Below, one piece after another: positions 60,579-63,302 of a DNA stretch of 64,000 bases. Made by a program: the position numbers and the translations under genes. The stretch is from a virus (taxonomy: Duplodnaviria > Caudoviricetes). The stretch covers positions 32,001 to 96,000 of the IMG/VR virus record IMGVR_UViG_3300028804_000001. The stretch is one strand, 5' to 3'. The notes beneath the pieces were generated by a model that was not told the DNA's origin, made no database searches, and was given only the letters and a program-made list of their open reading frames with translations. Every line of letters starts with the position of its first letter. The stretch's first letter is position 1.

Positions 60579-60634
60579 CACGTTTCGACCTCCATTTCGG
60601 TCCTCGTCAGTATAGGATGGTTCCTATATACGTG
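60579..60634 (-). ncRNA. hammerhead ribozyme, type III
   Basis: CACGUA^UAUAGGA-ACCA-UCCUAUA-CUGACGA-G-GACC-GAAAUGGA-GGUC-GAAA-CGUG. Confidence 0.85.
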
Positions 60635-60674
60635 TATAAAGACAGAATAAACTAATCTTTATATTGAGTATAAC

Positions 60675-60756
60675 AAAAAGAAAAGACCCCCATAGTGTGC
60701 CATAAGACAGAATAAAATTTAAATTATACTATCTTACAGCAACACTATAGGAGTCA
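60675..60756 (-). terminator. long-hairpin terminator after the RNAP gene
   Basis: GACTCCTATAGTG...CACTATGGGGGTC-TTTTCTTTTT. Confidence 0.7.
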
Positions 60757-60784
60757 CCCAGATCATCACAGCATAAACTACAAG

Positions 60785-63190
60785 TTATGTCTTGTTGTCC
60801 ATATCTGTGTTGATGGCATAGTCCCCTGCAAGGAGAACTACGCCATCGATTACCTCAAGCAGGAACTCACGGTTGGGAAGTTTTGCTACTTCCTTGGCCA
60901 AAAGTCCATATGCGTGAAGCACGCGGAGGAGTTTACCCTCGTAAGCCATAGGATCCGCGGTCCTCATAGCTTCCTTGATGGCACCAGACAGGGTTGTTAC
61001 ACCCTCAAAGCCAAAGCTTGCAGCAAAGGCTTCTTGAACTGTCCGCATCCATCTTTTAGCACCGGCAAGGTTATTCACCTCAACGGATGCTTTGATAAGC
61101 CGCTCGAGATGGGTTACGGATACCTCACCTGTTGCAACTTCACGTATTCCTTTGGCAGGGAAACAACCAAAGTCTACGTTCCAGTGTGATTGAGCCTGAG
61201 CATTGAATACTCCGAGCTCATTATCGTCCTTAGGCTTCCCTGTTGCCAGCAAAGCCAGGAGATAATCACCATCGGCCTCAAGATTATCAGTTATGGTTTT
61301 CACCATATCCATGATCTTCCGGAGGTTAGGGAGTGCGTAGTTCTTCTTCACTCCTTGTGCAGCTATGTCCAGATAGCCACCCAGAACCTTAAGCGCACCT
61401 GGAATACGCTCAAGTTGCTCTGTCTTCTTCAGAGCGCCTATGGTTTTAGCCAAAGCGTTGAAGATTGGACCGATCATAGACTGAGCGATCCAGGGCTTAA
61501 GAGCCAGCCCTACGATATCTCCCATTGGGAGTATCTCACCTCTTCCGATAAGAGGTTCCTCATTGCCATCAAATGCCGAAACAAGTCCCGGCAAGAGAAG
61601 GCCATGATCATCACCATCACCCTGGATGAATTTTGCATCATCCGGATGCATGACGATCAGCCAATGATCATTAGGTAGTGTTGCAGAAACGCTACCAATG
61701 GTCACCTTGAGGAATGACTGATGCGAAGTAATTGGATACCTCACAAGAGTCATAGGGCAATTCCATTTGCCCATCTTAAGAAGATCATCCATGACCTTCT
61801 GATTCGCTACGGGACGACCAGGCATAACATCCACATCACCAATCTTTTCTGCAAAGATCAGCGAGGGATACATGCTTCCCCGTACACGGATCCGTTTCGC
61901 CTTCTGAACAAGGGTACTCCAGATCTTGGTTCTGTCCGATTTAGCTTCGAGGCTATAGAAGGCTTTGCAAAGTTCGGAGTTCCTTACTTTACCTTCTGTT
62001 TCATCGGACATGGCTGTAATCGTAGCCAACAGATTCTTGAAGGGATCTGCAACCCTGGAGCTTACCTTCGCCGCATTTCTCTCGAACATCCTGGTGATGG
62101 TCTTGAGGCTGCGTTCCTCCCACTTACCAATAAGCAGTGAGAGAATGTGGAGGCTGTAAGCTTCCTTCTCATCTCCTTCTTCTTTAACGGCAGCGAGCTT
62201 GGTGGTGATGATTTCACCAGGCTCAACCGTGGACCACTTCACATTGTCCGGTGTGATCCAACCGTGAACACCTTCTGGCAATTCTCCGAACTCTGAGAGA
62301 AGTCCATCAGAGGTCATTACCCGGCCTTTAATTACGCCGAGCTTACCAGATTTAGTTTTAGTCACACCTCTTACGAGGAATGACCGATCTCTCCATGATT
62401 CTGTTACTGCATTGGTAGCAATAACAAAGTTGCCATCGTGAGATTTGTTCCCTTTCGAAGATACTGGTGCAGGGACAACCAGCAGCTTCACATCAAGGAA
62501 TCTCTCGAGAGGCAGGTTCCAGATGTCCTTTCCTGCTCTCAAGAACACGCCAAGCAGCTCTTCTTTGGTAAAGCCATAGCGTGCAAAGGCTTCCCAAAGT
62601 GTTGGTGTACCCGGCTTACGAACAGTGATTACGAAACCACCGTTATCGTTAGCCCAGGCTGGATGTGCAGGAAGCAATTCCTCAGGATTTCTCCCGAGAG
62701 CCTTAAGCACATTCCGAACCAACTTGTTACGGAAATCTTCAGGCCATAGAACCGGCCACAGCAGTTCTACACCCCACTCTTTCTTACCATTTCTGGTACG
62801 AGTGGATTTCCGGAACACGGTCTTACCTTCTTCAGTGAGAAGGCATTTCTTACGACCATCGACGACCATCCATTCGACGACCGGGCAGCCCAACAACTCT
62901 GCAGCCTCTTCATTGCTGAAGAATCCAGTAGTGGAGATCTTGATGAACTCAGGTCTAAGACCATGAGCCCAGCCAATAGAATCTACTGGTTGCTCTACAG
63001 AGCTATCGAACGGGTGATATTTCTTCGCAATACGAAGATTCTCACCAGCAAAGAAAGCCGTAGCAATTACTTGCACAGCATTCTTATCACTGCCACCGCT
63101 AAGACTCAAACCGAGCACCTTAACGGCTCTTCCAAAAGCGGTTTCACTGAACCCTTCTGGTAGATTGTTTTCTTTGTTCACATCTTTCAT
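60785..63190 (-). CDS. single-subunit double-psi-beta-barrel RNA polymerase (YonO/QDE-1-like) with atypical catalytic loop
   Basis: SHDGNFVI, LVRG...GVIKG, TLVRYPI, MHPDDAKFIQGDGDD; GGGGAG RBS. Confidence 0.68.
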   Translation of the reverse strand: MKDVNKENNLPEGFSETAFGRAVKVLGLSLSGGSDKNAVQVIATAFFAGENLRIAKKYHPFDSSVEQPVDSIGWAHGLRPEFIKISTTGFFSNEEAAELLGCPVVEWMVVDGRKKCLLTEEGKTVFRKSTRTRNGKKEWGVELLWPVLWPEDFRNKLVRNVLKALGRNPEELLPAHPAWANDNGGFVITVRKPGTPTLWEAFARYGFTKEELLGVFLRAGKDIWNLPLERFLDVKLLVVPAPVSSKGNKSHDGNFVIATNAVTESWRDRSFLVRGVTKTKSGKLGVIKGRVMTSDGLLSEFGELPEGVHGWITPDNVKWSTVEPGEIITTKLAAVKEEGDEKEAYSLHILSLLIGKWEERSLKTITRMFERNAAKVSSRVADPFKNLLATITAMSDETEGKVRNSELCKAFYSLEAKSDRTKIWSTLVQKAKRIRVRGSMYPSLIFAEKIGDVDVMPGRPVANQKVMDDLLKMGKWNCPMTLVRYPITSHQSFLKVTIGSVSATLPNDHWLIVMHPDDAKFIQGDGDDHGLLLPGLVSAFDGNEEPLIGRGEILPMGDIVGLALKPWIAQSMIGPIFNALAKTIGALKKTEQLERIPGALKVLGGYLDIAAQGVKKNYALPNLRKIMDMVKTITDNLEADGDYLLALLATGKPKDDNELGVFNAQAQSHWNVDFGCFPAKGIREVATGEVSVTHLERLIKASVEVNNLAGAKRWMRTVQEAFAASFGFEGVTTLSGAIKEAMRTADPMAYEGKLLRVLHAYGLLAKEVAKLPNREFLLEVIDGVVLLAGDYAINTDMDNKT

Positions 63191-63245
63191 GTGAATCTCC
63201 CCGATTAGTATTTGGATTTACTCTTTCGAGCATACTAACCGTAGC

Positions 63246-63302
63246 TTTCGCTTACCCATAGAGGTTTCGACTGGTTGCTATCCAGTTCTCATCAGAGCGA
63301 AA
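63246..63302 (-). ncRNA. hammerhead ribozyme, type I
   Basis: UUUCGCU-CUGAUGA-GAACUGG-AUAGCAA-CCAGUC-GAAA-CCU-CUAU-GGGUA^AGCGAAA. Confidence 0.85.

What the first reader, a model, noticed from the sequence alone, without database searches (positions are those of the whole stretch)
60579..63302. RNA polymerase gene bracketed by two same-sense hammerhead ribozymes
Seen: a type I hammerhead cuts ~60 nt upstream of the start (63253/63252) and a type III hammerhead cuts ~155 nt downstream of the stop (60629/60628). Both have GUA cleavage triplets and both follow a terminator with the same TTTTCTTTTT tail. The ORF is visibly GC-richer than the replication genes. Established: hammerhead cleavage leaves 5'-OH and 2',3'-cyclic phosphate ends, which RtcB-type ligases can join. 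Inference, two models: (a) each ribozyme trims read-through RNA to give a defined 5'-OH end for the next unit; (b) double cleavage releases a ~2.6-kb unit that could circularise and that encodes a QDE-1/YonO-like polymerase, i.e. a possible RNA module embedded in a DNA phage. The terminator between the ORF and the second ribozyme favours (a) unless read-through is frequent.
Basis: partly seen in the sequence, partly recalled or inferred. Interest (0 to 1): 0.9.

Follow-up and report, generated by a model that had tools for sequence, protein, structure and literature searches.

The report
Ribozyme-trimmed phage RNA polymerase message
Two self-cutting RNA motifs really do sit on either side of the gene for an apparently undescribed kind of RNA polymerase in a giant phage, but they most likely trim the front end of phage messages rather than release a circular RNA, and related phages keep a cutter of a different design just before the same gene.

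Summary
Observation confirmed: a type I (cut 63253/63252) and a type III hammerhead (cut 60629/60628) flank an 801-aa ORF; a strict scan finds no others in this 226-kb phage. The protein folds as a single-chain two-barrel RNA polymerase (best matches P74-26 gp62, QDE-1), has no family match, and carries an invariant DxDD loop instead of DxDGD in 34 aligned homologues.

Circular-RNA model unsupported: the excised piece holds no ribozyme core, its ends do not pair, a strong hairpin terminator precedes the second ribozyme, one metatranscriptome shows no junction (weak), and none of 14 other homologous loci has a downstream hammerhead.

What recurs is the upstream cutter: type II (63 nt before ATG), type III (77 nt) and a twister-sister-like candidate in three relatives, against 62 nt here. 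Best reading: each ribozyme makes the 5'-OH start of the unit downstream. Cleavage and polymerase activity are untested.

Gene-flanking phage hammerheads are known (Perreault 2011), and this scan noted them in other phages. New are the DxDD polymerase family and ribozyme swapping in its leader.

The parts
63367..63639 (-). Small upstream ORF (about 71-90 aa) ending in a QGQLEL clamp-binding-like motif; last gene before the polymerase
   Evidence: homologue in L001, E 7e-7; motif function from memory
63300..63343 (-). Intrinsic-terminator-like hairpin with TTTTCTTTTT tail; the end of the U-tract is the 5' strand of HH1 stem I
63245..63303 (-). Type I hammerhead (HH1), GUA, cut between 63253 and 63252, possible 3-4 bp pseudoknot with 63245-63242
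63191..63252 (-). 62-nt leader left after cleavage: 5'-terminal GAAA tetraloop hairpin, a 10-bp stem, then the GGGGAG ribosome-binding site
   Evidence: predicted fold
60785..63190 (-). 801-aa single-chain two-barrel RNA polymerase; D252, K288, K318, R484-Y-P486, D525-G-D527-D528
60675..60755 (-). Long terminator-like hairpin (about -41 kcal/mol, z -9) with TTTTCTTTTT tail, between the stop codon and HH2
   Evidence: RNA contig ends at its foot, 60757
60579..60634 (-). Type III hammerhead (HH2), GUA, cut between 60629 and 60628, 4-bp loop-loop pseudoknot
60195..60628 (-). Structured, GC-rich stretch without a credible ORF that HH2 would head; differs between strains by deletions

Best explanation
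This is the start of a jumbo phage's early region. The 801-aa gene encodes a DNA-dependent, single-chain two-barrel RNA polymerase of an apparently undescribed DxDD family, probably the enzyme for the downstream early genes. Each hammerhead serves the unit downstream of it. Transcripts that run through the first hairpin/U-tract fold HH1 and cut themselves, so the polymerase mRNA starts with a 5'-OH end and a terminal hairpin 62 nt before the ATG, and ends at its own terminator. HH2 does the same for read-through into the structured stretch beyond. The likely purpose is to set the stability or translation of the polymerase message separately from the upstream genes. Shown: motifs, predicted fold, conserved residues, recurrence in relatives. 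Inferred: cleavage, enzyme activity, template, and the effect of the 5'-OH end.
For: Only two strict hammerheads in the genome, both with pseudoknot potential. Upstream hammerheads in two relatives with other permutations and similar spacing: L001 type II, 63 nt; L004 type III, 77 nt, directly after a terminator-like hairpin. L008, sister of L004, has a twister-sister-like motif there (16.6 bits, E 0.32, below cut-off). About 0.0006 chance hits of that descriptor score are expected in 13 leaders (from the nulls). In L004 the two hammerheads bracket the small gene upstream of the polymerase, each 61-77 nt before an ATG. Fold matches: P74-26 gp62 Z 19.3 (rmsd 6.8, 511 aligned), QDE-1 Z 16.5 (rmsd 5.5, 508 aligned). 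The P23-45 counterpart gp64 lies among pre-early genes and transcribes early genes (10.1101/2022.12.01.518664). The locus lies next to the GC-skew switch. Hammerheads flanking prophage genes cleave in vitro and in E. coli, with no circles found (PMC3088659).
Against: No cleavage or polymerase assay. Rfam does not score the hammerheads. Ten of 14 loci with readable leaders show no recognisable ribozyme, so it is not needed family-wide. The looser descriptor was adjusted after I had seen L001 and L004 by eye. The host is unknown, so a 5'-OH end could stabilise (RNase E, J and Y prefer 5'-monophosphate, PMC10939160) or destabilise (glmS cleavage leads to decay, PMC6154101). The DxDD register rests on alignment, not on inspected coordinates. 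The RNA contig stops 170 nt short of the HH1 cut.
Confidence: 0.68

Rival explanations
1. HH1 is a damper: cleavage exposes the polymerase mRNA to decay or uncouples it from upstream translation, limiting or timing polymerase synthesis; HH2 insulates downstream units from read-through.
For: A terminator-like hairpin overlaps HH1, so the gene is already throttled. glmS cleavage triggers decay (PMC6154101). No RNA contig covers 60183-60756.
Against: The cleaved leader is predicted to begin with a hairpin, and type II and III cuts in relatives also leave a 5'-terminal stem, which fits protection better.
Confidence: 0.15
2. The ribozymes are active but near-neutral passengers that drift in and out of early-region spacers.
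For: Absent from 10 of 14 homologous leaders; HH2 has no counterpart in relatives; such motifs are common in phage spacers (PMC3088659).
Against: Three permutations at nearly the same distance from the same gene, and none elsewhere in 226 kb.
Confidence: 0.08
3. The protein is not a gene-transcribing polymerase but a priming or hybrid-making enzyme for replication, working with SSB, RNase H and helicase.
For: Altered catalytic loop; homologues fused to or beside RNase H (L001, L015, L019), a PIF1-like helicase (L017) and SSB; locus near the skew switch; the phage has a second polymerase with canonical GDFDGD.
Against: Closest solved fold is a transcribing phage enzyme; a TTTTTCAG motif heads genes downstream of it but not its own leader.
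Confidence: 0.06
4. Double cleavage releases a 2,624-nt RNA that a host RtcB circularises and that its own polymerase copies.
For: Geometry gives 5'-OH and cyclic phosphate ends; QDE-1, which has RNA-dependent activity (PMC9508822), is among the best fold matches.
Against: No hammerhead in the unit, its junction or its antisense; ends pair no better than shuffles; strong terminator inside; no RtcB in the phage; no downstream hammerhead in 14 other loci; no joint in the one RNA run, whose contig covers neither end (weak).
Confidence: 0.03

Closest known systems
Clustered hammerheads flanking single genes in prophages (Perreault et al. 2011, PMC3088659)
   Same: Same-sense hammerheads with pseudoknots around a gene; processing into gene-length mRNA proposed; circles sought and not found.
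   Different: There the flanked genes vary; here a ribozyme recurs before the same polymerase gene with changing permutation, and each follows a terminator-like hairpin.
HHphage of haloviruses HF1/HF2 (PMC3088659)
   Same: Hammerhead just upstream of an early enzyme gene; the mapped 5' end lies within 3 nt of the cut.
   Different: Archaeal virus, helicase gene, variant core, 13 nt from the start codon.
Thermus phage P23-45 gp64 / P74-26 gp62 non-virion RNA polymerase (PDB 8F72, 8F5M)
   Same: Best structural match (Z 19.3); single chain; encoded among the first genes of a phage with two polymerases.
   Different: 12% identity, DxDxD motif there against DxDD here, about 200 residues shorter; I know of no ribozyme reported there.
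Neurospora QDE-1, plant RDR2, SPbeta YonO
   Same: Two-barrel fold; equivalents of QDE-1 D709, K743, K767, R962-x-P964 and the three aspartates are conserved (PMC9508822).
   Different: No sequence-level match; loop one residue shorter; RNA-templated activity untested. YonO was not compared directly.
Ribozymes in 5' UTRs of linear RNA viruses (PMC13725137)
   Same: Several ribozyme classes used interchangeably before an ORF; cleavage itself matters for expression.
   Different: Eukaryotic RNA viruses and cap-independent translation; here a DNA phage with Shine-Dalgarno sites.
Viroid-like circular RNAs and retrozymes
   Same: Two same-sense hammerheads bounding a unit.
   Different: Those rebuild a complete ribozyme in the circle (from memory); this unit would retain none.

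Membership tests
Hammerhead ribozyme | Core CUGANGA, GAAA and NUH around three stems | tested here: met
   none in 10 genome shuffles
Hammerhead ribozyme | [quoted passage not shown] | tested here: met
   pairing potential only: 4 bp in HH2, 3-4 bp in HH1
Hammerhead ribozyme | Match to Rfam RF00163 or RF00008 | tested here: not met
   Rfam also missed the clear type II motif of L001
Hammerhead ribozyme | Self-cleavage at H17 | not testable with these tools
   needs a cleavage assay
Two-barrel polymerase superfamily | Two double-psi beta-barrels in one catalytic core | tested here: met
   model pLDDT 87; Foldseek E about 1e-9 to QDE-1 and P23-45 gp64; Z 19.3, 16.5, 15.3
Two-barrel polymerase superfamily | Two lysines and an Asp in barrel A, R-x-P in barrel B | tested here: met
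   K288, K318, R484, P486 invariant, D252 nearly so, in 34 sequences
Canonical two-barrel RNA polymerases (QDE-1/YonO/gp64 type) | DxDGD or DxDxD catalytic loop | tested here: not met
   DxDD in all 34; third Asp assigned by invariance, not by coordinates
Canonical two-barrel RNA polymerases (QDE-1/YonO/gp64 type) | Template-dependent RNA synthesis | not testable with these tools
   needs purified enzyme
Viroid-like or retrozyme-like circular RNA | Complete ribozyme retained in the circular monomer, in one or both polarities | tested here: not met
Viroid-like or retrozyme-like circular RNA | Circular junction in RNA | tested here: inconclusive
   no joint in one contig-level metatranscriptome
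Twister-sister (L008 leader only) | P1/P2 with conserved internal loop and Rfam RF02681 score | tested here: inconclusive
   best Rfam hit, 16.6 bits against cut-off 34; only one inner hairpin

The most novel reading that the evidence does not exclude
A DNA phage releases, by double self-cleavage and host ligation, a circular 2.6-kb RNA that encodes a DxDD two-barrel polymerase able to copy RNA: an RNA amplification module inside a DNA genome.
Probability: 0.03. Interest if true: 0.95.

Novelty: new variant of a known kind. Interest (0 to 1): 0.6.

Why it matters
What self-cleaving ribozymes do in bacteria and phages is largely open (PMC6765202). Here one gene keeps a cutter in its leader while the design changes (hammerhead I, II, III, perhaps twister-sister) at 62-77 nt from the start for the hammerheads. 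That points to selection on the cut itself and offers natural swap constructs for a reporter test. Separately, about 40 distant proteins keep an RNA polymerase active site whose aspartate loop lacks the usual glycine, a variant I could not find described; it would test how strict the DxDGD geometry is.

Tried and rejected
Rfam scans found neither hammerhead and no ribozyme in whole homologous loci, so they say little about other classes. Pfam, PHROGs, NCBIfam, PDB sequence, ESM Atlas and GenBank phages gave no family for the protein. The word-based search found only the protein itself. No homologous loci in viral or genome contigs. T4-type RNA ligase search was uninformative because controls did not ring. 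A paper search for DxDD two-barrel polymerases returned nothing; the library is incomplete. By eye, HDV-like (L003) and twister-like (L012, L001 downstream) readings did not fit and are not claimed. GC richness as a sign of a foreign module was rejected: the gene ranges from 34.5 to 54% GC, 0.3-6 points above its locus. Lack of RNA contig cover at 60183-60756 and 63083-63252, and contig depths, are weak evidence only. The tree is the quick version and does not place this protein firmly.

Full report
Setting. The window is 32001-96000 of a 225,628-bp phage record whose ends overlap by about 130 bases. GC skew changes sign near 96 kb, just right of the window, where genes diverge. Leftwards come three small ORFs, the 801-aa gene, about 1 kb without a credible ORF, then SSB and many small genes. 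The stretch occurs in activated-sludge, wastewater and marine runs. The host is unknown.

Observation. HH1 is type I with stems of 8, 6 and 3 pairs and cuts after 63253, 62 nt before the ATG. HH2 is type III with stems of 7, 4 and 4 pairs and cuts after 60629, 156 nt past the stop. Both have GUA triplets, a bulge next to the first pair of stem II, and a possible pseudoknot between arms I and II, the contact described for about 40% of hammerheads (PMC3088659). A strict descriptor finds only these two in the genome and none in ten shuffles. Rfam recognises neither. Both terminator-like hairpins exist; the U-tract of the first supplies the 5' strand of HH1 stem I, so HH1 can form only in RNA that starts at or above that tract. 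The GC difference is real but shared with the neighbouring spacer and another block of the genome.

The protein. It has no family match in any library, but 41 relatives at 27-39% identity. The alignment-based model is confident (pLDDT 87, pTM 0.85) and matches single-chain two-barrel polymerases: P74-26 gp62 Z 19.3, QDE-1 16.5, RDR2 15.3. Invariant residues map onto QDE-1's active site (PMC9508822): K288 and K318, R484-x-P486 (the arginine that contacts the 2'-OH there), and three aspartates; D252 is nearly invariant. The loop reads DxDD in all 34 aligned proteins. D525 lies nine residues after the conserved HP, as the first Asp does in cellular enzymes (from memory), so the simplest reading is loss of the glycine of DxDGD. 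An ungapped alignment would instead put H529 on the third Asp, but H529 varies while D528 does not. The phage also encodes a 920-aa polymerase with canonical GDFDGD.

Relatives. I obtained 14 independent other loci, 13 with readable leaders. L001 has a type II hammerhead cutting 63 nt before the polymerase ATG, with a 6-bp pseudoknot. L004 has a type III hammerhead 77 nt before it, directly after a terminator-like hairpin, and a type II hammerhead 61 nt before the preceding small gene. L008, the sister of L004 in the quick tree, has instead a motif whose best Rfam match is twister-sister, below the cut-off. The other ten leaders show no recognisable ribozyme; several have a hairpin with U-tract followed by an irregular stem before the ribosome-binding site, which could be RNase III-type sites (inference). 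No relative has a hammerhead downstream of the gene. The looser descriptor was tuned after seeing L001 and L004, but its null rate (5 hits of score 16 or more in 8.9 Mb of shuffles) predicts about 0.0006 hits in these leaders. Neighbouring early genes are shared with L001, L003, L004, L008, L012 and L015, so the gene is a resident of the phage early block.

Circle model. Cutting at both sites leaves both catalytic cores outside the 2,624-nt piece. Neither the junction nor the doubled unit contains a hammerhead on either strand, and the ends pair no better than shuffles. The phage has no RtcB, though a host might. In the one metatranscriptome, a single contig covers 60757-63082 and ends in adapter sequence at the foot of the terminator hairpin; there is no joint, and the depth arithmetic shows no contig cover from 60756 to 60183. 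Contigs cannot prove ends and the library may hold DNA, so this is a weak hint of a linear message.

Mechanism. The layout reads as repeated units of ribozyme, gene, terminator, as in L004. Each cut gives the downstream RNA a 5'-OH end with a terminal hairpin. By analogy with P23-45 gp64 (10.1101/2022.12.01.518664), the first block would be transcribed by a host or virion enzyme, and the new polymerase would then serve downstream genes, many of which are headed by a hairpin plus TTTTTCAG. That cascade is inferred. Whether the 5'-OH end protects or destabilises depends on the host's nucleases.

Verdict. Gene-flanking hammerheads in phages have been known since 2011, and this scan has noted many such arrays elsewhere. 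The RNA-module idea is unlikely. The finding keeps value for two things I did not find described: a DxDD family of single-chain polymerases, and a leader in which different ribozyme designs replace one another. New variant of a known kind; interest 0.6.

Noticed in passing
window minus strand 60490, 60202, 59321, 58893, 58675, 58069, 57461, 55228 and further left; similar in L004 near 8690 and L008 near 4120: TTTTTCAG, often after a hairpin and just before a ribosome-binding site; 20 of 23 genomic copies are on the minus strand. Two RNA contigs begin within 15 nt of a copy (60182, 55215). Candidate promoter or processing site.
   Followed up: partly
window 33110-35872 (-): Second, 920-aa polymerase with an Rpb2_6 domain and R.P...GDFDGD in one chain; weak matches to AR9/PBS1 beta subunits.
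   Followed up: partly
window 63367-63639; L001 2545-2796; L004 5165-5371 and 5467-5859; L014 12567-12794: Small early proteins ending in QGQLEL, QLALF or QPTLF-like motifs that resemble beta-clamp-binding peptides.
   Followed up: no
L004 8470-8700 and L008 3850-4130: Shared non-coding elements after the polymerase gene (hairpin with GCTTCTC loop, CTCTCTCG...GGCTGGATAGA); loosely echoed at window 60565-60520 and 63935-63830.
   Followed up: partly
L001 4054-4458, L015 5216-9067, L019 4861-5265, L017 2020-7272, L018 4001-7540, P0015: Polymerase homologues fused to or beside RNase H, a PIF1-like helicase, DUF4326, NADAR and DUF1848.
   Followed up: no
L019 503-4861: Every early spacer has a hairpin with U-tract followed by a second irregular stem before the ribosome-binding site; possible RNase III-type processing in place of ribozymes.
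   Followed up: no
window 63877-63915: Purine-pyrimidine-rich palindrome near the divergence point, with a 13-nt deletion in other strains; a similar hairpin lies in L006 3616-3657.
   Followed up: no
window 63048-63056: Two other strains carry a compensating -1/+1 indel pair in the 5' part of the polymerase gene.
   Followed up: no
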